The notes under the pieces were generated by a model. That model was not told the origin of the DNA, did no database searches, and was given only the letters and a program-made list of their open reading frames with translations. From Pseudomonadales bacterium (GTDB lineage Bacteria; Pseudomonadota; Gammaproteobacteria; Pseudomonadales; JAUIET01), in the NCBI GenBank assembly GCA_037969395.1, contig JBBKXJ010000094.1, positions 1 to 11,687 of the forward strand: a DNA stretch of 11,687 nt, read 5' to 3'. Of this stretch, positions 642-11,487 are shown piece by piece. The position numbers were made by a program, and so were the translations under genes. Each line of letters opens with the position of its first letter. Within the stretch, counting starts at the first letter, position 1.

Positions 642-710
642 TCTTCTCGCCATCTATAGTTTTAAAAAGCCCATTCGCACGTCTTCTCAGCATCTATAGT
701 TTTAGAAAGC
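642..710. repeat. Two copies of a 29-bp imperfect direct repeat (26/29 identical, 40-bp period) upstream of the cluster
   Basis: 642-670 is tcttctcgccatctatagttttaaaaagc and 682-710 is tcttctcagcatctatagttttagaaagc. Each copy contains the small palindrome CTATAG. The repeat sits about 80-150 bp upstream of the first cluster gene. Confidence 0.45.
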
Positions 711-738
711 TCAATCACACATCAATCAGTCACGATTA

Positions 739-776
739 TATTACATGTAATAAATGTTTACATATTACATGTAATA
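739..776. promoter_or_regulatory. Twin identical 14-bp perfect palindromes (TATTACATGTAATA x2, centres 24 bp apart); candidate operator/promoter of the cluster
   Basis: 739-752 and 763-776 are both TATTACATGTAATA, and each is perfectly self-complementary. The spacer is aatgtttaca. The first copy overlaps a possible -10 (TATATT 737-742), with a weak -35-like ATCACA at 714-719. The second copy ends 16 bp before the ATG at 792. Confidence 0.45.
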
Positions 777-791
777 AGATATATTTTTACC

Positions 792-1415
792 ATGAATAAA
801 AAATCATCCGCATATTACCAGCGCGAATTCCGTAAACGACTACGCGAACAAGGGCTTGTGAAGAAGGAAGTGTGGATCCATCCCGACCACGCCAAACAGC
901 TACATGCGCTCGAAAAGCAGCTGCGCACTCGGTCGGGGCCCAAAGGCACAGATGGAGGTAATACCATGAATGACAAAATCAAAACCTGGAACACCGTGGA
1001 TTTGCACCAAGCTCTGCAGGGCTCAGAACTGTTCACTTCCGGCAGCGCAACAACAGAGCTTATCGATGGTGTAGAACCCAGCATCCACATCGTGATGCGC
1101 GAATTTGGTGATCTCCCCATTTTTCTCACCGTGGTCGGTGAGCAAATCGTCGCCGAATCGGTGCTGTGGTCGATTAACGAGGTAAAGGATGTTGCGGCAT
1201 TTAACGACACGGTATTGCGCACCCACAAATATTTCCCGCTGTCGACCATTAGCCTGGATAACGTCGGCGGCATCGACTACTACCATATGTTCGGCGCGCT
1301 CAGTGCGTCATCCATTCTGGAAAATATTGTTTTTGAAATAGAGGTGCTGGCGGCAAACGTGATTCACGCGACAGAAGCATACAGCGAATTTTTGACAATC
1401 CCCGTGGAATCCTGA
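792..1415 (+). CDS. yjfI: DUF2170 / YjfI-family protein with an extra basic 58-aa N-terminal segment (alternative internal start at 966 with a strong SD)
   Basis: The ORF is 207 aa. Residues 59-207 (MNDKIKTWNTVDL...LPIFLTVVGEQIV...FPLSTISLDNVGGIDYYHMFGALSASSILENI...) match my recollection of the E. coli YjfI / DUF2170 family (LPI..T, PLST.SL and GAL motifs). GGAGGT at 954-959 lies 7 nt before ATG 966. No SD is visible before ATG 792. The stop TGA at 1413-1415 overlaps the SD of the next gene. Confidence 0.75.
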   Translation: MNKKSSAYYQREFRKRLREQGLVKKEVWIHPDHAKQLHALEKQLRTRSGPKGTDGGNTMNDKIKTWNTVDLHQALQGSELFTSGSATTELIDGVEPSIHIVMREFGDLPIFLTVVGEQIVAESVLWSINEVKDVAAFNDTVLRTHKYFPLSTISLDNVGGIDYYHMFGALSASSILENIVFEIEVLAANVIHATEAYSEFLTIPVES

Positions 1416-1425
1416 GGAGTACAAC

Positions 1426-2127
1426 ATGAATATTTGGGCGAAAATGATCACTGCATTACGCGGTGGAGTTAACGAAGCCGGCGAAGCGATCATAGACACG
1501 CAAGCCTTGCGTATTCTGGATCAGGAGGTGCGCGATGCGGCCGAAGAGCTGAAGGCATCGAAAGACAGCCTGGCGACAATCATCGCCAGACAAAAGCTGG
1601 GCGAAGAGAAAGTGGTCAATCTCAAAGCCGAAATCGATGCGCACGAAGGCTATGCCGTAAAGGCGTTGGAAAAGAAAAACGAGGCACTGGCGCTGGAAGT
1701 GGCGGGCAAAATCGCCAACTTCGAAGCAGCGTTGCATACCGAGGAGTCCGCCACCCAGGGCTATAAGGCAAGCGCAGACAAGTTGAAGGCCGCAATCAAA
1801 CAGGCTGAGTCAAATATTCGCCGCCTGAAGCAACAGGTCGACACGGTCAAAGCCACTGAAAGCGTGCAGCGCGCGCAAGCCGCAGTGTCGGCACGCCACA
1901 GTGGCTCCAATTCAAAAATGCGAACCGCGATGGATTCGCTGGAGCGTATCAAGGAAAAGCAGGCGCTAAGCGCAGCGAAAATGAATGCCGCGGCGGAGCT
2001 TAGCGATGAGCTTGCCGAATCGTCATTGCAAACTAAACTCGAAGAGGCCGGTATCGTTGCCTCGGGCAGAAGTGCTGATGAGATTTTGGCCAAACTAAAA
2101 CAAAAGACGCAGCCGCCTGCAGAGTAG
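1426..2127 (+). CDS. yjfJ: PspA/IM30 (phage-shock protein A / Vipp1 / ESCRT-III-like) family protein, YjfJ-type paralogue
   Basis: The 233-aa protein is helical and coiled-coil throughout. The N-terminus MNIWAKMITALRGGVNEAGEAIIDTQALRILDQEVRDAAEELKASK... is typical of PspA/IM30. The block VDTVKATESVQRAQAAV resembles the YjfJ block VVKATEAMQRAQQAV as I recall it. SD GAGGAG at 1414-1419 sits 6 nt upstream of the ATG. The gene is translationally coupled to the yjfI-like gene. Confidence 0.88.
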   Translation: MNIWAKMITALRGGVNEAGEAIIDTQALRILDQEVRDAAEELKASKDSLATIIARQKLGEEKVVNLKAEIDAHEGYAVKALEKKNEALALEVAGKIANFEAALHTEESATQGYKASADKLKAAIKQAESNIRRLKQQVDTVKATESVQRAQAAVSARHSGSNSKMRTAMDSLERIKEKQALSAAKMNAAAELSDELAESSLQTKLEEAGIVASGRSADEILAKLKQKTQPPAE

Positions 2128-2203
2128 ATGCGGCAGCTTGCCTCAGCGGTTCGAATTAACCCACTCAGCGCAGGCTAAATAAAACAACAAAAGGAGGCCA
2201 GTG

Positions 2204-2905
2204 ATGTTTGCAATTCTTCTAACTGAAGGCATGGATCCTTTCTACCAGAACATCGCGTCTTTCCCAACCGCTGTTTTTACGTTGTTGCTGGCGGTGTGCG
2301 TGCTGTATTGGCTATCCGCGGTGCTGGGTCTGGTCAGTGTTGACGTGCTCGATTTTGACATACCCGAATCGGTTGGCGCGGAAGACCTGAATGCTGATAG
2401 TGGCGCGTCGGGTCCCGATGTACTGGCGGGATTAATGCTGAAATTCGGTTTGTACGGTGTGCCGGTGACCATCATCGTTTCCATTTTGTCGTTGGTCGGC
2501 TGGCTGCTCTGCTACTACCTGGTGCACTTCAGTCTTGGCTACGCTCCCGAGTGGCTGGCTGCAAGCTGGGCGCGCTATGTTATTGGCTTGCCGCTGCTGG
2601 TGGGAAGTTTATACGTTGCAGTGCTGATCACAGCGCAACTCATCAAACCCCTGCGCCCGTTGTTTCTCAAGTCAAGCCAGGAAACCGTGAAGTATGTGCT
2701 GGGGCAGACAGCCATCGTGCGCACCTCAAGGGTGGATAACGACTTCGGTGAGGCGACGCTGGATGACGGCGGTGCCGGCTTGATACTAAAAATCCGCACT
2801 GCGGGCGATGTGCGATTCGTTAAAGGCGACCGCGTTGTCGCGATAGAAAAAATTGCGGGCACGGATTATTACCGCGTGGTCTCCGAACAAGAGTTTGCCA
2901 GCTAG
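2204..2905 (+). CDS. yqiJ: YqiJ/DUF1449-type NfeD-like inner-membrane protein (N-terminal TM helices plus C-terminal OB-fold beta-barrel)
   Basis: The protein has hydrophobic TM segments (FPTAVFTLLLAVCVLYWLSAVLGLV; VPVTIIVSILSLVGWLLCYYLV; VIGLPLLVGSLYVAVLITAQLI). Its C-terminus (GQTAIVRTSRVDNDFGEATLDDGGAGLILKIRTAGDVRFVKGDRVVAIEKIAGTDYYRVV) is typical of the NfeD/YqiJ OB-fold. AAGGAGG at 2191-2197 lies 6 nt before ATG 2204. The GTG at 2201 offered by the track is too close to the SD. The gene is immediately upstream of a flotillin, as in E. coli yqiJK. Confidence 0.8.
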   Translation: MFAILLTEGMDPFYQNIASFPTAVFTLLLAVCVLYWLSAVLGLVSVDVLDFDIPESVGAEDLNADSGASGPDVLAGLMLKFGLYGVPVTIIVSILSLVGWLLCYYLVHFSLGYAPEWLAASWARYVIGLPLLVGSLYVAVLITAQLIKPLRPLFLKSSQETVKYVLGQTAIVRTSRVDNDFGEATLDDGGAGLILKIRTAGDVRFVKGDRVVAIEKIAGTDYYRVVSEQEFAS

Positions 2906-2972
2906 AGAACAGCAATCCGCACCAATACGACACTTATACCAATAGATATTACAAAAGGAAAAGGAGAGAGAA

Positions 2973-4853
2973 ATGGCTGATTTAACGGTATTAATGCCCA
3001 TTGTCACCGGGGTCGCAATATTCTTTGTGATTCTGCTAGGCCTGGCTGGCTTGTTCAAAGCCTTTTACTACAAGGTTGAACAAGGCACTGCGCTAATCGT
3101 CAACGATATGAGCGCCACGCCGAAAGTACACTTCACCGGCGCGCTGGTATACCCGATTATCTACAAAAAAGAGCTGATGAAAATTTCGCTTATCACGCTT
3201 GAGGTAGACCGGCGGGGAAAAGACGGGTTGATCTGCCTCGACAATATGCGCGCCGATATTACCGTGGCATTCTACTTGCGAGTCAACGAAACACCGGAGG
3301 ATGTGTTGAAAGTCGCCAAGTCCATTGGTGCCACAAGGGCCTCCGACAAGGAAGCCGTGCATGACCTGTTTGCCGCCAAGTTTTCCGAGGCGCTAAAAAC
3401 GGTGGGCAAGCTTATTGAATTCGTGCAGTTGTTCGAAAATCGTCAGCAATTCCGCGAGAAGATAATTCAAGTGATTGGTGAAGACCTTAACGGCTATGTG
3501 CTGGAAGATGTCGCCATAGATTACCTGGAGCAAACGCCTAAAGCCGCGCTCGATTCCAGCAATATTCTCGATGCTGAAGGTATCAAGAAAATTACCGAAT
3601 TGACCGCCGAACAGAACGTGCGCACCAATATTCTGGAGCGTGACGAACAGCTGGCGATCAAAAAGAAAGACGTAGAAACCGTGGAAGCCATGCTGGAATT
3701 GGAGCGCCAACAAGCGGACGCCGAAGCACGGCAAGAGCGGGAAGTGCTCACCATTCGGGCACGCGAGGAAGCAGAAACCAAGAAAGTTCAGGAAGAGGAA
3801 CGCTTGAAAGCGGATGCGGCAACCATTCGTGTTGACCAGGACCTTATGGTGCAGACCGAAAATCAGCAGCGCGAGATCGAAGTAGCAGGGCAGAACCGTG
3901 AGCGCGCAGTCGCCGTTGAGCAGGAGAAAGTCACGCGGGCGCGCGACCTGGAAATTGTGTCACGCGAACGCGAAGTGCAGGTGGAGCGTGTGCTCGCCGA
4001 GAAAGCCGTTGAGGTTGAGAAGAAAGAAATCGCCAATGTGATTCGCGAGCGTGTGGCGGTAGACAAAACCGTTGCTATCGAAGAAGAGCGCATCAACGAA
4101 GTGCGCGAAGTGTCGGATGCGGACCGCAAGAAACAAGTACAGGTGTTGGCCGCAGAAGCCAATGCGGAAGAGCTGAAAGTCAAGGAGGTGACTGCAGCGG
4201 CAGCAGAAGAAGCGGCGGCGAAGCACAAAGCCACCGAAATCACCACGCTTGCCGAAGCTAATCTGGAAGCGGCGGATAAGGATGCCAAGGCGCAGATCAG
4301 GCTGGCCGACGCCATGCAGGCAGAGAAAGCCGCACCTGGATTAGCCGACGCCCAGATTCAACTCGCCAAAGCCGATTCCTTGCAGAAGGAAGGCTTGGCT
4401 GAAGCGCATATCATTACTGCCAAAGGTGAGGCTGAGGGTAGCGCCGCGAAACAAATCGGCATGGCCGGTGCTGAAGTGACGCGCGAGCAGTTCAAGGCTG
4501 AAGCCGACGGCTTGGTCGACAAATTCGAAGCAATGAATTCAATGAGCAGTCAAGCGCGCGAACACGAAGAATTCCGAATGACGCTGGAGACTGCCTTCAA
4601 GGAAGCGATTGCCACCATCGAAGCCGGTAAGGAAATCGCCAAGGAAAATGCGGAAGTGCTCGCCACCGCGCTCGAGAAAGCCAAGATCGATATCGTTGGC
4701 GGCGAAGACCACTTCTTCGACAACTTCGCCAAATCCTTGTCTATCGGCAAGGCGGTCGATGGTCTGGCCAACAAGAGTGAAACCATCAGCAGACTGCTGG
4801 ATAAAGTGATGACCAAAGACGCGGGCGAGGATAAGGCTGCAAATCAGCCCTAA
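2973..4853 (+). CDS. yqiK: Flotillin-family SPFH/band-7 protein (YqiK-like): N-terminal TM anchor, SPFH domain, long Glu/Ala-rich coiled coil
   Basis: The 626-aa protein has an N-terminal TM helix (LMPIVTGVAIFFVILLGLAGLF). The SPFH region (GTALIVNDMSATPKVHFTGALVYPIIYKKELMKISLITLEVD...ICLDNMRADITVAFYLRVNE...) is followed by an EA-repeat-like coiled coil (ERQQADAEARQEREVL..., AAEANAEELKVKEVTAAAAEEAAAKHKATEI...). SD AAGGAG at 2961-2966 sits 6 nt before the ATG. Confidence 0.9.
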   Translation: MADLTVLMPIVTGVAIFFVILLGLAGLFKAFYYKVEQGTALIVNDMSATPKVHFTGALVYPIIYKKELMKISLITLEVDRRGKDGLICLDNMRADITVAFYLRVNETPEDVLKVAKSIGATRASDKEAVHDLFAAKFSEALKTVGKLIEFVQLFENRQQFREKIIQVIGEDLNGYVLEDVAIDYLEQTPKAALDSSNILDAEGIKKITELTAEQNVRTNILERDEQLAIKKKDVETVEAMLELERQQADAEARQEREVLTIRAREEAETKKVQEEERLKADAATIRVDQDLMVQTENQQREIEVAGQNRERAVAVEQEKVTRARDLEIVSREREVQVERVLAEKAVEVEKKEIANVIRERVAVDKTVAIEEERINEVREVSDADRKKQVQVLAAEANAEELKVKEVTAAAAEEAAAKHKATEITTLAEANLEAADKDAKAQIRLADAMQAEKAAPGLADAQIQLAKADSLQKEGLAEAHIITAKGEAEGSAAKQIGMAGAEVTREQFKAEADGLVDKFEAMNSMSSQAREHEEFRMTLETAFKEAIATIEAGKEIAKENAEVLATALEKAKIDIVGGEDHFFDNFAKSLSIGKAVDGLANKSETISRLLDKVMTKDAGEDKAANQP

Positions 4854-4867
4854 AACAGCGCGCTCAA

Positions 4868-4901
4868 CGCTGGCAGGCGGTTGATCCTGTCAGCGCTTTT
4901 T
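4868..4901 (+). terminator. Candidate intrinsic terminator/attenuator between the flotillin gene and the giant ATPase gene
   Basis: CGCTGGCAGG (4868-4877) pairs with CCTGTCAGCG (4886-4895) as a 10-bp GC-rich stem with one G-U wobble in RNA and an 8-nt loop. It is followed by C then TTTTT (4897-4901). It lies 15 nt after the flotillin stop and 26 nt before ATG 4927. The U-run is short (5), so termination is probably partial. Confidence 0.5.
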
Positions 4902-4926
4902 GTCATCTGGTTTATGGGAGATTGCA

Positions 4927-7900
4927 ATGGCTGAACAGCCTGGCAAAGACGCGCTTGTTGAAGCGGCCGTCGCGGAGGGTGGCGCGTACGACGTCATTAG
5001 AAAGCGCCTTGAAGAGCACGGTCGCCAGCTCGAGGAAAAGACACAACAAGTGAATGCAGCGCGTATTGCCGAAATTGGCAGTACCGATATGCAAACCGTT
5101 GCGCGTGTGAGAGTCAGAACGGAACACAACAGCGTGGCGCGCGATATCGTTCAGGTGGGCGATTATCTGCTGTTCGGTTACAACGTATTTATTGGTTTAA
5201 AAAAAGAAGTCAAAGTGGAAGATGTTTTTTCACTGTTTGCGTTAACCGAGAGCAACGGTGAATATACTATCGAAGCTGCGCCCGCCGAAGTAGATTTTTT
5301 GCAACAGCAGCGCTTCAGTTCGGATTTTCGCGAGCTGTATCAATACTACAAGCATACCCGCTTGATCCAGCTGACGGTTAATAACGGCAAGTTATTGGCC
5401 GGTTTTCAGATTGGCGAAAAACTGGAAGATATTCGTGTGTTTCGCTGGTCGGTATCTCCTGACGGTAAACAGGTTGAATATATTGATAACCGCGGCGAAC
5501 GCGACATTCAATTGCCGCCTGCCTTTGACTTCGAATGGCAAGCGGCAGGCAGGGAAGACTTTGTCAATGGGCGTCACCCGCATATCAATATTTTGGACCG
5601 TCTGTTTGTTGATACGCTGGGTGGCACTTTATCCATAAAAGTCGAGGATAACACCGAGTCCGGCCAGGGCATTTATAGTGAGCCGGTGGAAGAGCAAAAC
5701 CAGTCGCTGGATGATGTTGACGTGCAGTATGCGCTGGTTGGCGACCTTGTTCTGTTGCGCGTATTGCCGTATCGCGAGCAGCAGTGGCGGCATTTTGTGT
5801 TCAATACCAATAGTGAGCAGATTAATCGCATCGACGCGATTGGTGAATCGTGCGTTCAGCTGCCGGAAGATCACGGCATCATATTTCCTGGCGGCTATTA
5901 CTTACAAAATGGCGAATACAAGTCCTTCGATGAAGACATAGTCGGGCTGAAGTTCAAGCGCATGCTTAAATCGCCTAACGGCGAGGATGTGCTGTATATT
6001 TTTTATGAACCGGCAGATGGCGTGGTCGCGCTGCTGCCGTATAACCTGATTAATCGGAGCCTGCAAAACCCTATTATCAGTCATGGTTACGCGCTGGCGG
6101 AAGACGGCAGGCTGGTGGTATTCACCTCGGAAGAAGAGCCAACCCGGGTACATCCGATGCAGGTATGGCAAACGCCGTATACCTCGCAAGACTTTGCCGA
6201 TCGCATGCCGGTACAGCAAACTTTCTTCGGCCGCATCGGCAATTCGGCCATGGTGCGCGGTGTCTCCGATCTGTTTAGTATCGCTCGCCAGATACGCGAG
6301 CAAAATGTCTCCGTCGCACACTATGAGAAACTGGGTAAAGCGGTGGCGCGCGCCTTCGACGCCTACTACTGGTTAGACAGCCCGGAGCTTGATGATATCG
6401 ACGCAACGCTTAAAGAGGTTGCGCAAACATCAGAACTGGTCATCGACGAGTTTGAAAAAGTCGATGCGATTCGGCGTCAGTCCGCCACGGCGATGGCCGA
6501 GGCAGAGCAGGCACAACAAGCGATTATTACCGGTATAGGCACGGCCACCTGGGAAAAAGTTGCGGATTTCGTCGAGTCTCTTGATCGCGTTCGCCACCAG
6601 CGTGGCCATCTGGCAACCATCAGCGAGTACCGCTATATCGATACCAACCGTATCGCGGAGCTGGACGCGGAGCTGGTTGCAAGCGCGGATGAGCTGGGTA
6701 CAAAAACCGTCGAATTCCTGGCCGACGAGCAATCGCTGGCGCCTTATTTGCAGCAGATCGCCGAGCTGGACCAGCAAATCGAGGCGGCAAACTCGGTTGC
6801 ATTGTTAAAGCCGTTGATTGAAACCATGGATGCGATTGCCCGCGGCCTGGATTTACTGTCGGAGTTAATGGCGACGCTTAAAGTCGATGACGCCACGGTA
6901 AGAACCCGTATCATTGACGCCATCTCTGCGGTTTACGCCAAGCTGAATCAAACCCGGGCCAGTGCGAAACATCGGCAGGCAAATCTTGGCTCGGCCGAAG
7001 CGGTTGCGCAATTCTCCGCCCAGTTCAAACTGTTTTCACAAAGTATTAACAACGCGCTCGGCTTGGCCACTGATCCGGACCGCTGCGAGGAGCAGCTGTC
7101 GCGACTGTTGGTGCAGCTGGAAGAACTCGAAAGCCAGTTTGGCGAGCACGAACAATTCCTCGCCGATATCATTGAGAAGCGTGAGGAAATCTATGACACC
7201 TTCGAGTCGCACAAACAAACGCTGATTGAGCAGCAACAGCGCAAGGTGCAAGTGCTGGTCGATGCAGCCCAGCGGATGTTAGGCAGCATTGAAAAGCGCA
7301 GCAATAAATTTACCGCAGCGGATGATCTGAATACCTATTTCGCCGCTGATGCGTTGGTGCTGAAGATCAAGGAGCTAACCCAGCAACTCGGGCAACTCGG
7401 CGGCAATGTGCAGGCCGATGATATTGGCTCGCGCTTCAAAATGATCAAGGACCAGGCCTTGCGCTCGCTGCGCGACAAAAGCGATATCTTTATCGAGGGC
7501 GGCAAGGTCATCAAGCTCGGTCCCAGGCATCGCTTCAGTGTCAACACCGATGAACTCGATCTATCCATCGTGCCGTATCAGGAGGGGCTGGCCGTGCATT
7601 TGGCCGGCACGCAATACTTCGAAGCCATTAACCATCCAGACCTGCTGGCGCTAAAAGACTACTGGAACCTGTCGCTGGAGTCGGAGAGCGACGTCGTCTA
7701 CCGCGCCGAATACCTGGCCTTTCAATTTATTCAAGCGCTGCGTGCCAACGATGCCGGTGTGGATCAGGCAGACGTTGAAAACGCCCTGCAGTCCGAGCAG
7801 CAAATGTATGACCTGGTTCGCGCCTTCGCTACCCCCCGCTACAAAGAGGGTTACGAAAAAGGTATTCACGACTACGACGCAGCCAAATTACTGATGGCGT

Positions 7901-10185
7901 TATTACCCTTGCTGAACACCGCCGGGTTGCTGACCTATCTACCTCGGCAGCGCGCCCTTGCCCAGGTATTCTGGGTGGCGTTCAGTAGTGCTACAGAGAA
8001 CAAGGCCAGGGTGGAAAGCTGGCCGCAACGCGCGGCATCGGCTTATGCTATGCGCGAACTATTGCACAGCTCAGCCAGCATTTCCCTGGTGGAGAACGAA
8101 GTTGTACAGGCGATAACGCAATTCAACGAACAACATGCTTTGGTGAGTAGTGAGCTGGATTTGCAGCAAGCGGCTGTTTATCTGGTTGGCGAACTGCAGC
8201 AAGGCACAGCGGAATTTGTCACCACCCAATACGCCACACAGTTGCTCGATATGTATCGACTCGCCCTGGATGAGCACACGATAGCAGAGCATCAGCGATC
8301 ACTGCGCAACTTACAGGGCAACTATGTGCAGCAGTGGCGACTCAGCGAGGCTTGGTTAGAAGCGCTGTTGAATAAAGAGGAGAAAGAAGGCAAAAACCTA
8401 GAGCTGGTGAATGTCTTAAGGCATTACGTTCCCGAGGCCGTTGCTGTGCTGAATCTCGGCGAGGCAATAGTGCGTCGCCACGCAGACATAAAACTACACC
8501 TTACGGTGGACAATCTAATGGGCGCGCATGCGCGCATTCAGAACCGCAGCATTTTGCTTGCCGTGGATACTTTCATGCAGCGCCTGCGCCAGCATGTGCA
8601 AATTGTTGTGCCTGCTTACCAGCACTACCTGCGGCTCAAGCATGAGATTGCCAACCACGAACGCGAGGCCTTGCGGCTTGAGTCGTTCAAAGCGCAACCA
8701 TTAAGCTCTTTCGTTAGAAACAAGCTTATCGATCAGGCGTATCTGCCGATCATCGGCGATAATCTCGCCAAGCAAATCGGCACGGTTGGCGACAGCAAGC
8801 GTACCGATCTCATGGGCTTGCTGATGATGATCTCGCCACCCGGATACGGCAAGACAACACTAATGGAATACGTGGCGAACCGACTTGGTCTGATCTTTAT
8901 GAAGATCAACTGTCCGGCGCTGGGCCACAACGTGCTGTCGCTGGACCCCGAGCAGGCACCCAATGCGACCGCGCGGCAGGAACTGCAGAAGCTCAACCTT
9001 GGGTTGGAGATGGGCAATAACGTGATGTTGTATCTGGATGATATACAGCATACCAATGCCGAATTTCTGCAAAAGTTTATCTCCCTGTGCGACGCCACCC
9101 GGCGTATCGAAGGGGTGTGGCGCGACAAGGCAAAAACCTACGATATGCGCGGCCGGCGGTTTTGCGTTGTTATGGCCGGTAACCCGTACACCGAATCGGG
9201 CGAAGCGTTCAAGGTGCCGGATATGCTGGCCAACCGTGCGGACATTTATAACCTTGGCGACATCCTCGGCGGCATGGATGAGCAGTTCGCGCTTAGCTAT
9301 ATAGAAAACAGCTTGACCTCGAACGCCGTATTGGCGCCGCTGGCGGTACGCGAAATGGGTGATGTGTACAAGCTGGTGGATATGGCCAAGGGTTTAAATG
9401 TACCCACAACCGACCTCAGCCACTCCTACAGCAGCGCCGAAATCAATGAGATTACCGGTGTGTTGAAAAAACTGTTTGTGATTCAGGACGTAGTGCTAAA
9501 AATCAATCAGCAATATATTGCGTCTGCCGCCCAGGACGATAAGTACCGGGTAGAGCCAGCATTTTTGCTGCAAGGTAGCTACCGTAATATGAATAAAATG
9601 GCGGAGAAAGTCTCTGCCGTGATGAACGATGCAGAGCTGGCGCAATTGATAGACGACCACTACCAGGGCGAAGCTCAGTTGCTGACCTCGGGTGCCGAAG
9701 GTAATTTGCTCAAGCTGGCCGAACTCAGAGACGAACTGAGCGAGCAGCAGGCAGCGCGTTGGCAGCAGATAAAAACTGATTTTCTGCGCAATAAGGCTAT
9801 GGGTGGTGATTCTGATGACATTGGCGGCAAGATCAACGCGCAGCTTGCCGATCTCGTGCAAAGCGTTCAGGCTCTGAATGTTAATCGAGACGGCGCGGCA
9901 GGGGAGGCGGCAAACCAATCGAACGCGGCACTAGCTACCAGTATCGAAAAGCTGCTGTCAGGCTTGCAGGAAGCACGACCGAAAATCGAAGTCATCAATC
10001 AACCGGTGCCGGAAATGGCCGCCGTGCTTTCCGTGTTGAACGAAACCATCGACAACACGTTGTTTCCTATTTTGCGCGCGATGGATAAAAAGATCGACAT
10101 AGACCTGCGCACGCAGGAGAAAATGCATTCTATATCCGAGCAGTTGCGAGTCTTGCAAAGTAAAATAGATCCCGGCGATATTTAG
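4927..10185 (+). CDS. Giant 1752-aa multidomain protein with one MoxR/AAA_5-type AAA+ ATPase module (aa ~1290-1480) set between a beta-rich N-terminal region, a long helical region and a helical C-terminal tail; likely the type often auto-annotated as 'DNA repair ATPase'
   Basis: The ORF is uninterrupted from 4900 (TTG) to the TAG at 10183-10185. ATG 4927 is the preferred start, with GGGAG at 4915-4919 at 7-nt spacing. Walker A is ISPPGYGKTT (nt 8842-8859). Walker B is MLYLDDIQH (DD at 9037-9042). Sensor-1 is VVMAGNPYTE (9175-9186). The arginine-finger-like motif DMLANRADIY matches the MoxR/RavA/McrB/dynein-type AAA_5 signature (xxQNP ... LLDRF). No VWA/MIDAS motif, nuclease motif or second AAA module is seen. 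The N-terminal ~460 aa are beta-rich (repeated G..L..G/DG-type turns). About 800 aa are predicted helical or coiled-coil. Confidence 0.88.
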   Translation: MAEQPGKDALVEAAVAEGGAYDVIRKRLEEHGRQLEEKTQQVNAARIAEIGSTDMQTVARVRVRTEHNSVARDIVQVGDYLLFGYNVFIGLKKEVKVEDVFSLFALTESNGEYTIEAAPAEVDFLQQQRFSSDFRELYQYYKHTRLIQLTVNNGKLLAGFQIGEKLEDIRVFRWSVSPDGKQVEYIDNRGERDIQLPPAFDFEWQAAGREDFVNGRHPHINILDRLFVDTLGGTLSIKVEDNTESGQGIYSEPVEEQNQSLDDVDVQYALVGDLVLLRVLPYREQQWRHFVFNTNSEQINRIDAIGESCVQLPEDHGIIFPGGYYLQNGEYKSFDEDIVGLKFKRMLKSPNGEDVLYIFYEPADGVVALLPYNLINRSLQNPIISHGYALAEDGRLVVFTSEEEPTRVHPMQVWQTPYTSQDFADRMPVQQTFFGRIGNSAMVRGVSDLFSIARQIREQNVSVAHYEKLGKAVARAFDAYYWLDSPELDDIDATLKEVAQTSELVIDEFEKVDAIRRQSATAMAEAEQAQQAIITGIGTATWEKVADFVESLDRVRHQRGHLATISEYRYIDTNRIAELDAELVASADELGTKTVEFLADEQSLAPYLQQIAELDQQIEAANSVALLKPLIETMDAIARGLDLLSELMATLKVDDATVRTRIIDAISAVYAKLNQTRASAKHRQANLGSAEAVAQFSAQFKLFSQSINNALGLATDPDRCEEQLSRLLVQLEELESQFGEHEQFLADIIEKREEIYDTFESHKQTLIEQQQRKVQVLVDAAQRMLGSIEKRSNKFTAADDLNTYFAADALVLKIKELTQQLGQLGGNVQADDIGSRFKMIKDQALRSLRDKSDIFIEGGKVIKLGPRHRFSVNTDELDLSIVPYQEGLAVHLAGTQYFEAINHPDLLALKDYWNLSLESESDVVYRAEYLAFQFIQALRANDAGVDQADVENALQSEQQMYDLVRAFATPRYKEGYEKGIHDYDAAKLLMALLPLLNTAGLLTYLPRQRALAQVFWVAFSSATENKARVESWPQRAASAYAMRELLHSSASISLVENEVVQAITQFNEQHALVSSELDLQQAAVYLVGELQQGTAEFVTTQYATQLLDMYRLALDEHTIAEHQRSLRNLQGNYVQQWRLSEAWLEALLNKEEKEGKNLELVNVLRHYVPEAVAVLNLGEAIVRRHADIKLHLTVDNLMGAHARIQNRSILLAVDTFMQRLRQHVQIVVPAYQHYLRLKHEIANHEREALRLESFKAQPLSSFVRNKLIDQAYLPIIGDNLAKQIGTVGDSKRTDLMGLLMMISPPGYGKTTLMEYVANRLGLIFMKINCPALGHNVLSLDPEQAPNATARQELQKLNLGLEMGNNVMLYLDDIQHTNAEFLQKFISLCDATRRIEGVWRDKAKTYDMRGRRFCVVMAGNPYTESGEAFKVPDMLANRADIYNLGDILGGMDEQFALSYIENSLTSNAVLAPLAVREMGDVYKLVDMAKGLNVPTTDLSHSYSSAEINEITGVLKKLFVIQDVVLKINQQYIASAAQDDKYRVEPAFLLQGSYRNMNKMAEKVSAVMNDAELAQLIDDHYQGEAQLLTSGAEGNLLKLAELRDELSEQQAARWQQIKTDFLRNKAMGGDSDDIGGKINAQLADLVQSVQALNVNRDGAAGEAANQSNAALATSIEKLLSGLQEARPKIEVINQPVPEMAAVLSVLNETIDNTLFPILRAMDKKIDIDLRTQEKMHSISEQLRVLQSKIDPGDI

Positions 10186-10233: not shown

Positions 10234-11301
10234 CTACGCTAGTGAATACCATGTACCACGCCCAGCACCATGCCGTGCAATAAACCCATTTTCCTGCAGA
10301 GTTTTCATGTGGTCTTTGATCGTGTTTCGACTTTTTCCTGTTGCTGCTACAGCGTCGCTAATTGTGACCCTGCTGTGTTCACGGGCAATTTCCAGAATTT
10401 GAACTGACAGCTGCGGCAAATCGCCGAAAATCAGGCGTTCACGTTCTATTTTTACTGCAAGTTTTTCTTTTTGCGTGGTCAGTGACAGGAGGAAGTAAGT
10501 TACCCACGGTTGCCAATCAGGAGAATCGGTTCGAATAGTAGCTTGTGTTCGGCGTAGTGCCAGATAGTAGGATTCTTTGCCTTGCTCAATCACGCTTTCC
10601 AATGAGCTATAGGGCACAAAGACATAACCGGCTTTCAGCAGTAGCAGCGTGGTCAATATGCGCGATAGCCTTCCATTGCCGTCCTGAAACGGATGGATCT
10701 CTAAAAAGACAACAGTGAAAATAGCGGTAATGAGCAGCGGGTGCGGGTGCTTTTCAGAGTGGGCTTTATTTGTCCATGCGATCAGTTCGTCCATTAAGCG
10801 CGGCGTATCAAAAGGCGTTGCGGTTTCAAAAATCACGCCGATGCTTTTTCCGTCTGGTGAAAAAGCCTCAACGCTATTGGATAGTGTCTTGTATTGCCCG
10901 CGATGTCGTGAATCTTTGTCAGAATGTTGCAATAGCTCAGCATGGAGTTGTTTGATGAAATTTTTCGTCAGTGGTATGTTCTGCCAGTGCTCGATCACCG
11001 TTTCCATCGCGGCGGCATAACCAGCCACTTCCTGCTCGTCCCGACTTTCAAAAGATTGAATTTCCAGGTTTGATAACAGTTTTTCAATGTCGCGATTTGA
11101 GAGCTTTGCGCCCTCTATTCGAGTGGAAGAACCAATGCTTTCAATTGTTGCAACATGCCGCAAGTTGGACAGACGCTCCGGCGCAATTCGCCCAATAGCC
11201 TGCCAAGCGCCCTTGAATTGATCCAGTTCGGAGATGAGCGACAATGTATGATGAGTGATTGCAAGCGTTTCAATATTCACTTCTGCATTAGCATATGACA
11301 T
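10234..11301 (-). CDS. Fic-family (AMPylator-type) protein, class II with an N-terminal inhibitory helix motif, and a C-terminal winged-HTH-like tail
   Basis: The catalytic Fic motif HPFQDGNGRLSR is encoded at 10660-10695 (revcomp reads CAT CCG TTT CAG GAC GGC AAT GGA AGG CTA TCG CGC). The (S/T)xxxE(G/N) inhibitory motif STRIEG is encoded at 11110-11127. ATG at 11301 is the preferred start. The track uses an upstream in-frame TTG at 11313. The gene is convergent with the giant ATPase gene, leaving a 48-bp gap. Confidence 0.88.
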   Translation of the reverse strand: MSYANAEVNIETLAITHHTLSLISELDQFKGAWQAIGRIAPERLSNLRHVATIESIGSSTRIEGAKLSNRDIEKLLSNLEIQSFESRDEQEVAGYAAAMETVIEHWQNIPLTKNFIKQLHAELLQHSDKDSRHRGQYKTLSNSVEAFSPDGKSIGVIFETATPFDTPRLMDELIAWTNKAHSEKHPHPLLITAIFTVVFLEIHPFQDGNGRLSRILTTLLLLKAGYVFVPYSSLESVIEQGKESYYLALRRTQATIRTDSPDWQPWVTYFLLSLTTQKEKLAVKIERERLIFGDLPQLSVQILEIAREHSRVTISDAVAATGKSRNTIKDHMKTLQENGFIARHGAGRGTWYSLA

Positions 11302-11487
11302 GCTGATATCCAATTAGCCATCCATTCTCATCCGTTTAATGATGGCATGACAATACCCGATTGTCCACCCGTTTCCATCCAATTAAACCGAGTCGAAAAA
11401 CGCAGATCGGAACAGCTTTCAATGGGCATGATCTGTTTATTCACTTTGAAACGAAAACCATGGCCTGTCTCTGGCTGTGTTGTTGCA

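What the first reader, a model, noticed from the sequence alone, without database searches (positions are those of the whole stretch)
739..776. Two identical perfect 14-bp palindromes (TATTACATGTAATA) immediately upstream of the cluster
Each copy is perfectly self-complementary. The centres are 24 bp apart (about 2.3 helical turns). The copies straddle the likely -10/transcription-start region and end 16 bp before ATG 792. This is the classic layout for a dimeric repressor or activator operator, for example a small HTH/RHH regulator, possibly the basic N-terminal domain of the first gene. The exact duplication of a 14-mer is very unlikely by chance in 11.7 kb.
Basis: seen in the sequence. Interest (0 to 1): 0.55.

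Follow-up and report, generated by a model that had tools for sequence, protein, structure and literature searches.

The report
Conserved bacA operator pair, likely autorepressor
The two identical palindromes are a deeply conserved pair of repressor-binding sites flanking the -35 element of the promoter of a PspA-type stress/biofilm operon (bac), and the likely binder is an overlooked small DNA-binding domain at the N-terminus of the operon's first protein, BacA, which would explain how BacA represses its own operon in Pseudomonas aeruginosa.

Summary
TATTACATGTAATA occurs exactly twice (739-752 and 763-776), and nowhere else in the window even with 3 mismatches.

The copies flank the -35 hexamer of a sigma70-type promoter (TTTACA 757-762, 17 nt, TATATT 780-785). 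The proximal copy fills the spacer.

In 80 orthologous loci from many gammaproteobacterial families, the core T[TC]ACATGT[AG]A occurs 180 times in the 150 nt upstream of the first gene. It occurs once in the other 491 kb. Spacing and distance to the ATG are fixed.

The first gene is BacA (PA3732 family). Its 46 N-terminal residues are the best conserved part of the protein and resemble the IncQ-type plasmid repressor F (UrfF). Repressor F's own promoter in plasmid pBR1.1 also carries two dyad sites 24 bp apart.

The published P. aeruginosa annotation and crystal structure (8q8o) start at an internal Met and lack this domain. A bacA mutant over-produces BacB-F. The TSS mapped in strain PA14 is the A of the long-form ATG, so the mRNA is leaderless.

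Best reading: this is an autorepressor operator pair. Binding itself is inferred, not shown.

The parts
739..752 (.). Distal operator O2: perfect palindrome TATTACATGTAATA, at -53..-40 relative to the predicted TSS at 792, immediately upstream of the -35 hexamer
   Evidence: The orthologous site is conserved in 77 of 80 loci, in close relatives despite divergent flanks, and in P. aeruginosa and Lysobacter.
757..762 (+). -35 hexamer TTTACA, lying between the two operators
   Evidence: Promoter scan gives 10 of 12 consensus positions with a 17-nt spacer. TTGAC is conserved at the same position relative to the proximal site in 73 loci.
763..776 (.). Proximal operator O1: identical palindrome TATTACATGTAATA, at -29..-16, filling the -35/-10 spacer
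   Evidence: The proximal core ends 15-19 nt before the start codon in 73 of the 78 loci that have a site.
780..785 (+). -10 hexamer TATATT
   Evidence: A conserved TAnAnT lies 4-5 nt after the proximal core in the orthologues.
792..794 (+). Start codon of long-form BacA and predicted transcription start (leaderless mRNA)
   Evidence: The ATG lies 7 nt after the -10 hexamer. There is no SD sequence here, and an SD-like 4-mer is present in only 14 of 80 orthologues. In P. aeruginosa PA14 the mapped TSS lies 177 nt upstream of the annotated short start, which is exactly the position of the long-form ATG.
792..929 (+). Coding region of the N-terminal UrfF/repressor-F-like basic domain of BacA (residues 1-46), the candidate operator-binding domain
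   Evidence: NCBIfam BacA model positions 1-49 are matched. UrfF E=3e-5 and MazE-like E=0.05, both below their cutoffs. hhalign to UrfF gives 79% probability, E=1.6e-5. 21 invariant residues. Codon-position identity is 0.77/0.86/0.45. AF2 predicts helix 6-19, an extended stretch 20-30 and helix 31-45.
930..965 (+). Variable, disordered linker containing a conserved internal Shine-Dalgarno sequence (GGAGG, 954-958)
   Evidence: pLDDT is below 50 for residues 47-62. An SD-like motif precedes the internal Met in 76 of 78 orthologues.
966..1415 (+). DUF2170 / CesT-like chaperone-fold domain of BacA, which starts at the invariant internal Met59 and is a possible short isoform
   Evidence: Pfam PF09938, E=2e-52. 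PDB 8q8o (P. aeruginosa BacA, 146 aa) aligns to residues 63-201 only. M59 is invariant in 20 aligned homologues.
1426..2127 (+). bacB homologue (PspA/IM30 family), the first downstream gene of the regulated operon
   Evidence: Pfam PF04012, E=5e-43. The same gene order is seen in all related loci inspected.
2201..10185 (+). Rest of the operon: a 234-aa protein with a weak YqiJ-like match (putative membrane protein), a 626-aa protein, and a 1761-aa DUF3686/DUF7902/AAA+ ATPase (bacC-, bacD- and bacE/F-like)
   Evidence: The synteny is conserved in the 96%-identical relative. The neighbourhood type is described in PMC11237479.

Best explanation
The two palindromes are tandem operators of the bac (bacA-pspA-like) operon promoter, and BacA most probably binds them itself. 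Long-form BacA has three parts. The first is a 46-residue basic N-terminal domain related to the IncQ-type plasmid repressor F (UrfF). The second is a disordered linker. The third is a dimeric CesT-like DUF2170 domain. A BacA dimer would place two N-terminal domains on each 14-bp dyad, with half-sites TTACA/TGTAA. One site lies just upstream of the -35 hexamer (-53..-40). The other lies in the -35/-10 spacer (-29..-16). Occupancy of both would exclude sigma70 RNA polymerase and shut off the leaderless bacABCDEF transcript, which is negative autoregulation. Shown here: the sites, their conservation and geometry, the promoter and TSS position, and the existence, conservation and repressor-F similarity of the N-terminal domain. 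Taken from the literature: the negative genetic effect of bacA in P. aeruginosa. Inferred: that this domain is the binder, the stoichiometry, and how repression is relieved. Relief presumably works through the DUF2170 domain binding BacB (PspA-like) or another partner under membrane stress.
For: 1. Exact duplicated palindrome, unique in the window.
2. The sigma70-type promoter has its -35 between the sites and the proximal site in the spacer.
3. In 80 orthologous loci, the core T[TC]ACATGT[AG]A occurs 180 times in 11.9 kb of upstream DNA and once in 491 kb elsewhere. 77 of 80 loci have at least 2 copies. The spacing is 21-24 bp in 71 of 77 loci. The proximal core ends 15-19 nt before the ATG in 73 of 78 loci. 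The consensus is TATTACATGTAATA, with conserved TTGAC and TAnAnT around it.
4. The same layout holds in high-GC P. aeruginosa and Lysobacter and on plasmid pQBR103.
5. In an 89%-identical relative the intergenic region has diverged, but both sites and the promoter are intact.
6. The N-terminal domain is the most conserved part of BacA and shows a third-codon-position wobble signature. It matches UrfF at E=3e-5 and at hhalign E=1.6e-5. 9 of 10 small homologues also match UrfF.
7. The urfF operon promoter in pBR1.1 has two identical GTTA-N4-TAAC dyads 24 bp apart flanking the -10. The RSF1010 F repressor autoregulates the E-F-repA-repC operon (PMC2200642).
8. E. coli yjfI lacks the domain and has no site upstream of the gene.
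9. A P. aeruginosa bacA mutant accumulates BacB-F 6- to 13-fold (PMC10948618).
10. The PA14 TSS mapped by dRNA-seq is 177 nt upstream of the annotated start, which is the long-form ATG. This confirms the promoter assignment.
11. No other conserved DNA-binding gene is linked to the operon in the four neighbourhoods inspected, the window and three related loci.
Against: There is no direct binding or footprint data. The similarity to UrfF (24 bits against a cutoff of 100) and to MazE-like (14 bits against 22) is below the curated thresholds, so homology is probable but not certain. The AF2 model of the isolated domain has only moderate confidence (pLDDT 67) and finds no PDB fold match. PDB sequence searches gave nothing significant. 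The predicted helix-extended-helix topology is not a textbook HTH or RHH. Protein and site are both nearly invariant, so there is no clean specificity covariation. The hint that hydrophobic residue 12 goes with TCACA half-sites rests on one clade and is confounded by GC content. Wallart et al. proposed a sigma54 promoter and an indirect protein-protein mechanism instead. The nature and polarity of their mutant were not examined here. An unlinked, dedicated transcription factor cannot be excluded by sequence alone.
Confidence: 0.8

Rival explanations
1. The palindromes are a genuine operator pair, but the binder is a different, unlinked transcription factor, for example a dedicated regulator encoded elsewhere. 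BacA would then act only indirectly through protein-protein contacts, as Wallart et al. proposed.
For: No binding data exist. The N-terminal domain matches no Pfam DNA-binding family above threshold and has no structural match. BacA's DUF2170 fold resembles T3SS chaperones that regulate by partner switching. AF2 predicts a BacA-BacB interaction (PMC13092808).
Against: The site co-occurs with the N-terminal domain in every lineage examined and is absent upstream of E. coli yjfI, which lacks the domain. The site is essentially absent from 491 kb of flanking DNA, so there is no sign of a wider regulon. No conserved neighbouring regulator was seen in the four neighbourhoods inspected. The domain resembles a plasmid autorepressor that has the same two-site promoter layout.
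Confidence: 0.12
2. BacA binds the sites as an activator or dual regulator, for example by recruiting RNA polymerase from the distal site, rather than as a simple repressor.
For: The distal site, centred near -46.5, is at a position compatible with class I-type activation. 24 of 80 loci carry extra upstream copies, 23 with a third and 1 with a fourth.
Against: The proximal site occupies the -35/-10 spacer, which is a classical repression position. The promoter hexamers are near consensus and should not need activation. A bacA mutant over-produces the operon proteins.
Confidence: 0.05
3. The duplicated palindrome is non-regulatory: a chance duplication, a dispersed repeat or MITE fragment, a restriction/methylation site cluster (ACATGT), or an RNA or DNA hairpin element.
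For: The two copies are mutually complementary and could in principle form a 14-bp stem (I1). ACATGT is, from general knowledge, a type II restriction site.
Against: There are only two copies in the window. The position is conserved across families whose GC content ranges from 44 to 67%. The sites lie upstream of the mapped or predicted TSS, so they are not transcribed from this promoter. There is no Rfam match. Background frequency is at the chance level.
Confidence: 0.02

Closest known systems
Repressor F of IncQ plasmids (RSF1010 gene F; NCBIfam NF041430 'UrfF, plasmid repression protein F') and its operators in promoter P4
   Same: It is a small basic domain with the same residue pattern (S..Q..Y..R.R..G..K...W..P[DE].A.Q....E..LR), with hhalign E=1.6e-5. 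It autoregulates the operon that encodes it (PMC2200642). In the IncQ-like plasmid pBR1.1 the promoter carries two identical dyad sites 24 bp apart that overlap the promoter hexamers. That is the same spacing as in the window.
   Different: F is a free-standing protein of about 65-68 aa that controls plasmid replication genes. Here the domain is fused through a linker to a CesT-like DUF2170 domain and controls a chromosomal PspA-type operon. The operator sequence differs: GTTA-N4-TAAC against TTACATGTAA. The score is far below the UrfF family cutoff, so this is a distant relative and not a member. That RSF1010 F binds two operators is recalled from Maeser et al. 1990, which could not be read here.
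BacA / PA3732 of Pseudomonas aeruginosa (bac operon; Wallart et al. 2024; PDB 8q8o)
   Same: It is an orthologue, with a full-length match to NCBIfam NF050185 above the cutoff, and the operon has the same gene order. The P. aeruginosa promoter has the same two sites, TTACATGTGA twice, around TTGAAA. BacA negatively controls BacB-F.
   Different: The published work uses the 146-aa short form that starts at the internal Met. It proposes a sigma54 promoter and a protein-protein mechanism, and mentions no DNA-binding domain or operator. The present analysis indicates a longer protein, a sigma70-type leaderless promoter and direct operator binding.
Type II antitoxins with an N-terminal DNA-binding module and a C-terminal partner-binding part (Pfam PF11455 MazE-like/DUF3018)
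   Same: There is weak similarity over the basic helix plus the GL..(V/I)W(V/I)P motif. The logic is the same: a DNA-binding N-terminus autorepresses the operon while the rest of the protein binds a partner, which would allow conditional repression.
   Different: The scores are below the Pfam gathering threshold. There is no toxin gene here, and the C-terminal part is a folded chaperone-like domain rather than a disordered toxin-binding tail.
E. coli Psp system (PspF/PspA, sigma54)
   Same: The regulated operon encodes a PspA/IM30 protein. The regulator may be controlled by interaction with the PspA-like protein (predicted BacA-BacB contact).
   Different: There is no PspF-type AAA+ activator upstream and no sigma54 promoter consensus. 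Control here is repression at a sigma70-type promoter.

Membership tests
BacA (NCBIfam NF050185, biofilm formation regulator BacA; PA3732 orthologues) | Full-length match to the equivalog model above its curated cutoff (300 bits) | tested here: met
   312.5 bits, residues 1-202 against model positions 1-203 of 206.
BacA (NCBIfam NF050185, biofilm formation regulator BacA; PA3732 orthologues) | First gene of an operon followed by a PspA/IM30 gene and the bacC-F-like genes | tested here: met
   The gene order is DUF2170, PspA, 234 aa, 626 aa, DUF3686/AAA+. The P. aeruginosa locus begins with the same order: DUF2170, PspA, 213 aa, then a 688-aa gene that runs off the locus.
BacA (NCBIfam NF050185, biofilm formation regulator BacA; PA3732 orthologues) | Negative control of the operon by the protein | not testable with these tools
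   Shown only for P. aeruginosa PA14, by proteomics (PMC10948618).
UrfF / IncQ repressor F (NCBIfam NF041430) | Sequence match above the curated cutoff (100 bits) | tested here: not met
   24 bits, E=3e-5, for residues 6-51. hhalign gives 79% probability. This is a distant relative only.
UrfF / IncQ repressor F (NCBIfam NF041430) | Free-standing protein of about 68 aa in a plasmid replication operon | tested here: not met
   Here it is the N-terminal domain of a 207-aa chromosomal protein.
UrfF / IncQ repressor F (NCBIfam NF041430) | Two adjacent dyad operators overlapping the promoter of its own operon | tested here: met
   In the window, two dyads 24 bp apart flank the -35. In pBR1.1, two GTTATCTCTAAC sites lie 24 bp apart.
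Ribbon-helix-helix (Arc/MetJ/CopG) repressors | An N-terminal beta-strand followed by two helices, and a match to RHH family profiles | tested here: not met
   No RHH Pfam or NCBIfam hit at E<=10. AF2 predicts helix 6-19, an extended stretch 20-30 and helix 31-45. The model is a monomer of moderate confidence, so a strand-mediated dimer cannot be excluded.
MazE-like antitoxin (Pfam PF11455) | Score above the gathering threshold (22 bits), with an adjacent toxin gene | tested here: not met
   14 bits, E=0.05. No toxin gene is adjacent.
Classical sigma70 promoter-occluding operator | Sites overlapping core promoter elements of a mapped promoter | tested here: met
   The -35/-10 prediction is conserved in 73 loci. 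The mapped TSS in P. aeruginosa PA14 coincides with the predicted +1.
Classical sigma70 promoter-occluding operator | Demonstrated protein binding and repression through the sites | not testable with these tools
   This needs EMSA, footprinting and reporter mutagenesis.
PspF/sigma54-controlled psp operon | A -24/-12 (TGGCAC-N5-TTGC) promoter and an upstream enhancer-binding protein | tested here: not met
   No match with 2 or fewer mismatches near the promoter in the window or in P. aeruginosa. Matches overall are fewer than chance expectation. No PspF-like gene is present.

The most novel reading that the evidence does not exclude
One leaderless transcript encodes two BacA isoforms. The first is a scarce long form, made by leaderless initiation at +1, that carries the operator-binding domain. 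The second is an abundant short form, made from the conserved internal SD and Met59, that has only the dimeric chaperone-like domain. Mixed dimers would carry one DNA-binding domain instead of two. The short form would then act as a built-in anti-repressor, and the long:short ratio would set operon expression. In Pseudomonas that ratio could be tuned by RsmA acting at the internal SD, and by BacB/PspA binding to the DUF2170 domain. This would be a self-titrating repressor/anti-repressor pair linking membrane-stress sensing to transcription without a sigma54 activator.
Probability: 0.3. Interest if true: 0.75.

Novelty: new variant of a known kind. Interest (0 to 1): 0.6.

Why it matters
BacA/PA3732 is described in the literature as a 'possible regulator' of P. 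aeruginosa biofilm formation, rhamnolipid secretion and virulence, with an unknown mechanism. This analysis gives a concrete, directly testable mechanism. It also indicates that the gene start used for the published crystal structure is too short by 59 codons. The promoter is sigma70-type and leaderless, not sigma54. The conserved operator is TTACATGTAA, present two to four times. In addition, the analysis defines a compact, widespread regulatory module for the YjfI/YjfJ class of PspA operons across Pseudomonadales, Cellvibrionales, Oceanospirillales and Xanthomonadales. It also ties a small, poorly characterised DNA-binding domain family (IncQ repressor F-like) to chromosomal stress operons.

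Tried and rejected
1. Regulon search. The core motif is absent from the rest of the window. It occurs once in 491 kb of flanking DNA in the related loci, which is about the chance level. There is therefore no evidence for targets beyond the bac promoter. The source genome itself could not be scanned.
2. Fold assignment of the N-terminal domain. A PDB profile search gave nothing significant. The AF2 monomer model reached pLDDT 67, and Foldseek against the PDB gave no hits. The fold remains unassigned.
3. tblastn of the domain against plasmids found only BacA-like genes on Pseudomonas megaplasmids. RSF1010 itself is not in the plasmid collection under NC_001740 or M28829. Maeser 1990 and the IncQ review are not held. 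An IncQ-like plasmid, pBR1.1, was used instead.
4. Stand-alone homologues as an independent test of the domain-site linkage. P0160 and P0172 turned out to be broken BacA genes (an N-gap and a 3x-coverage assembly), and they still carry the motif upstream. The truly free-standing ones (P0181, P0189, P0201) sit in phage- or plasmid-like modules, and their operators could not be identified.
5. Specificity covariation. Loci with residue 12 = I/V/L (one further locus with R12 was excluded) have TCACA half-sites in 12 of 20 cases, against 52 of 344 in E12 loci. The contrast rests on one high-GC clade and is not conclusive.
6. The 40-nt tandem repeat at 642-721 was considered as a further conserved regulatory element. 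Its TCTATAG core is retained only in close relatives and is absent from the wider family.
7. Sigma54 promoter: no consensus match.
8. Known RNA families: none.
9. Literature search for the motif sequence found nothing relevant.

Full report
**Observation.** The window contains TATTACATGTAATA at 739-752 and again at 763-776. Each copy is perfectly self-complementary, and the centres are 24 bp apart. No other match exists on either strand, even with three mismatches. Dinucleotide-preserving shuffles give a mean of 0.19 matches. The identical stretch is 16 nt long, ATATTACATGTAATAA.

**Local anatomy.**
- A sigma70-type promoter is predicted: TTTACA at 757-762, a 17-nt spacer, and TATATT at 780-785, matching 10 of 12 consensus positions.
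- The -35 hexamer therefore lies between the palindromes, and the proximal palindrome fills the spacer.
- ATG 792 lies 7 nt after the -10 hexamer and has no Shine-Dalgarno (SD) sequence.
- With +1 taken as A792, the sites occupy -53..-40 and -29..-16.

**Gene context.**
- ORF 792-1415 (207 aa) matches NCBIfam NF050185, 'biofilm formation regulator BacA', over its full length and above the cutoff (312.5 bits).
- Residues 65-201 are a DUF2170 domain.
- The next gene is a PspA/IM30 homologue (1426-2127).
- After that come a 234-aa protein with a weak YqiJ-like match, a 626-aa protein, and a 1761-aa DUF3686/DUF7902/AAA+ ATPase.
- This is the bac operon type of P. aeruginosa (PA3732-PA3729 plus two further genes; PMC10948618). 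It is also the CesT-like/PspA neighbourhood described in PMC11237479.

**Comparative test of the sites.** A scan of one genome per species returned 227 stretches that encode relatives, and the best 80 loci were kept.
- The loci come from Cellvibrionaceae, Spongiibacteraceae, Oleiphilaceae, Oceanospirillaceae, Saccharospirillaceae, Hahella, Endozoicomonas, Pseudomonas, Arenicella and Thiotrichaceae.
- When the upstream regions are lined up on the start codon, the motif is visible by eye in almost every locus.
- The core T[TC]ACATGT[AG]A occurs 180 times in the 150 nt upstream of bacA (11.9 kb in total). It occurs once in the remaining 491 kb of these loci.
- By copy number, 53 loci have two copies, 23 have three and one has four. 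The three exceptions have either a truncated upstream region or degenerate copies.
- The two promoter-proximal copies are 21-24 bp apart in 71 of 77 loci.
- The proximal core ends 15-19 nt before the ATG in 73 of 78 loci.
- The site consensus is TATTACATGTAATA. A conserved TTGAC lies 3-4 nt upstream of the proximal site, and a TAnAnT lies 4-5 nt downstream of the proximal core.
- In a relative whose BacA is 89% identical, the intergenic region has diverged, but both palindromes and the promoter hexamers are intact.
- The same layout is found in the high-GC genomes of P. aeruginosa (TTACATGTGA twice around TTGAAA) and Lysobacter. It is also found in other Pseudomonas and Lysobacter loci. Related sites, but not this spacing, lie upstream of a diverged copy on plasmid pQBR103.

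This is the signature of a dedicated cis-regulatory site. It is not a dispersed repeat.

**Promoter and TSS.** An independent experimental anchor exists.
- The dRNA-seq map of P. aeruginosa PA14 lists a TSS at 1374599 for the PA14_16140-16150 operon. The annotated start is at 1374776, which gives a 5'UTR of 177 nt (PMC3460626, supplementary file 4).
- In the P. aeruginosa locus retrieved here, the long-form ATG and the annotated internal ATG are exactly 177 nt apart, at 2501 and 2678.
- The mapped +1 is therefore the A of the long-form ATG, so the mRNA is leaderless. The sigma70-type hexamers identified here are then at the expected distance from the mapped +1.
- No sigma54 consensus lies near the promoter, either in the window or in P. 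aeruginosa. This contrasts with the suggestion in PMC10948618.

**Candidate binder.** The first 46 residues of BacA (KSSAHYQREYRKRLREQGLVKKEVWIxPExAxxLxxxEKQLR) are the most conserved part of the protein.
- 21 positions are invariant in 25 divergent sequences.
- Mean pairwise identity at codon positions 1, 2 and 3 is 0.77, 0.86 and 0.45. The region is therefore translated and under purifying selection.
- AF2 predicts a basic helix (6-19), an extended segment (20-30), a second helix (31-45), a disordered linker (47-62), and then a confident DUF2170 domain.
- The domain matches NCBIfam NF041430, 'UrfF, plasmid repression protein F', at E=3e-5.
- hhalign against a UrfF sequence gives 79% probability and E=1.6e-5 over 43 columns.
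- Nine of ten small homologues found with a profile search also match UrfF.
- Similarity to Pfam MazE-like (DUF3018) is weaker.
- All of these scores are below the curated family thresholds. I call this a distant relative, not a member.

**The UrfF analogue.**
- In the IncQ-like plasmid pBR1.1, urfF sits in a mobQ - small ORF - urfF - replication-initiator arrangement.
- The promoter upstream of that operon carries two identical GTTATCTCTAAC dyads (GTTA-N4-TAAC), 24 bp apart, flanking a TATGAT hexamer.
- PMC2200642 states that the RSF1010 P4 promoter of the E-F-repA-repC operon is autoregulated by the F repressor.
- The primary paper, Maeser et al. 1990, could not be read. My recollection that F is a dimer binding two adjacent operators is therefore marked as memory.

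**Negative control and genetics.**
- E. coli YjfI is 133 aa, has no N-terminal extension, and no site lies upstream of its gene.
- In P. aeruginosa PA14, a bacA mutant accumulates BacB, C, D, E and F 6- to 13-fold (PMC10948618).
- The crystal structure from that study (8q8o, 146 aa) aligns only to residues 63-201 of the window protein. The published work therefore used the short form, and it mentions no DNA-binding domain or operator.

**Mechanism proposed.** Long-form BacA dimerises through its DUF2170 domain, and its two N-terminal domains bind one dyad. Two dimers then occupy the sites on either side of the -35 hexamer and block sigma70 RNA polymerase, which gives negative autoregulation of the leaderless bac transcript.
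- Shown: the sites, their geometry and conservation, the promoter and TSS, and the conservation and repressor-like character of the domain.
- From the literature: the negative genetic effect.
- Inferred: the identity of the binder, the stoichiometry, and the inducing signal.
- The signal plausibly acts through the chaperone-like domain binding BacB. An AF2 interaction is predicted in PMC13092808.

**Rivals.**
- An unlinked transcription factor cannot be excluded without binding data. It is disfavoured by the strict linkage of the site to the domain, by the absence of a regulon, and by the absence of any conserved neighbouring regulator.
- Activation is disfavoured by the spacer-located site, the near-consensus hexamers and the mutant phenotype.
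- Non-regulatory readings (repeat, MITE, restriction site, hairpin, RNA element) are refuted.

**Novelty.** Tandem dyad operators over a promoter are classical, and BacA is a named protein. I found no paper that describes this operator, the N-terminal domain, or the leaderless long form. The fusion of a repressor-F-like domain to a CesT-like chaperone fold, controlling a PspA-type operon without sigma54, is a new variant of a known kind. It also revises the published model for P. aeruginosa BacA.

Noticed in passing
window 954-968 (SD GGAGG 954-958, ATG 966-968); also L090 2660-2680: An in-frame internal start with a strong Shine-Dalgarno sequence lies in the variable linker of bacA. Met59 and Gly55 are invariant in 20 aligned homologues. 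An internal Met is present in 78 of 81 sequences, and an SD-like 4-mer precedes it in 76 of those 78, against 14 of 80 before the first ATG. This suggests two isoforms, with and without the DNA-binding domain. It is also the start codon used in the P. aeruginosa annotation and in PDB 8q8o.
   Followed up: partly
window 792 (and L090 2501): The bac mRNA appears to be leaderless. The -10 hexamer ends 6-7 nt before the ATG in most orthologues, with no SD sequence. The PA14 dRNA-seq TSS coincides with the long-form ATG. Conserved leaderless initiation is unusual for a gammaproteobacterial chromosomal operon.
   Followed up: yes
L090 2655-2680 (P. aeruginosa): PA3732 is cited as a direct RsmA target with multiple binding sites around its SD sequence (PMC4066749, citing earlier work). 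That SD (GGAGAAGGAGGA) is the internal one, and it lies inside the coding region of the long form. RsmA would therefore affect the short isoform specifically.
   Followed up: no
window 642-721: A 40-nt tandem direct repeat (two copies, 83% identical; core CATCTATAGTTTTA) lies just upstream of the distal operator. One copy of the core is retained in the 89%-identical relative, but the element is absent from the wider family. Its function is unknown. It could belong to the divergent upstream gene or be a lineage-specific regulatory site.
   Followed up: partly
window 10234-11313 (- strand): A Fic/DOC-domain protein with a C-terminal winged-helix domain is encoded convergently after the large AAA+ gene. 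It was not among the genes called in the related loci inspected, most of which stop short of this position, and it is unlikely to be part of the bac system.
   Followed up: no
L085 (pQBR103, NC_009444.1 84437-87611): A diverged bacA-pspA pair on the Pseudomonas megaplasmid pQBR103 is followed by rhomboid, DUF2491 and DUF350 genes (the E. coli yjfK and yjfL families) instead of the bacC-F type. It has variant half-sites upstream (TTCATGTAA and TTACATGAA, plus one TTACATGTAA) and a normal SD sequence.
   Followed up: partly
L094 2501-2704, L097 2501-2659, L096 1449-1625: Free-standing 52-67-aa homologues of the BacA N-terminal domain occur in phage- or plasmid-like clusters of small ORFs, in one case (L094) next to a DnaB-type helicase with an SSAP_Sak gene about 2.4 kb upstream. 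This echoes the position of repressor F upstream of IncQ replication genes. Their operators were not identified.
   Followed up: partly
L075, L090, L091, L099, L100 versus the other loci: In the Pseudomonas/Lysobacter clade, residue 12 of the domain is I/V/L instead of E, and the half-site is more often TCACA than TTACA (12 of 20 against 52 of 344). This may be protein-DNA co-variation, but it is confounded by clade and GC content.
   Followed up: partly
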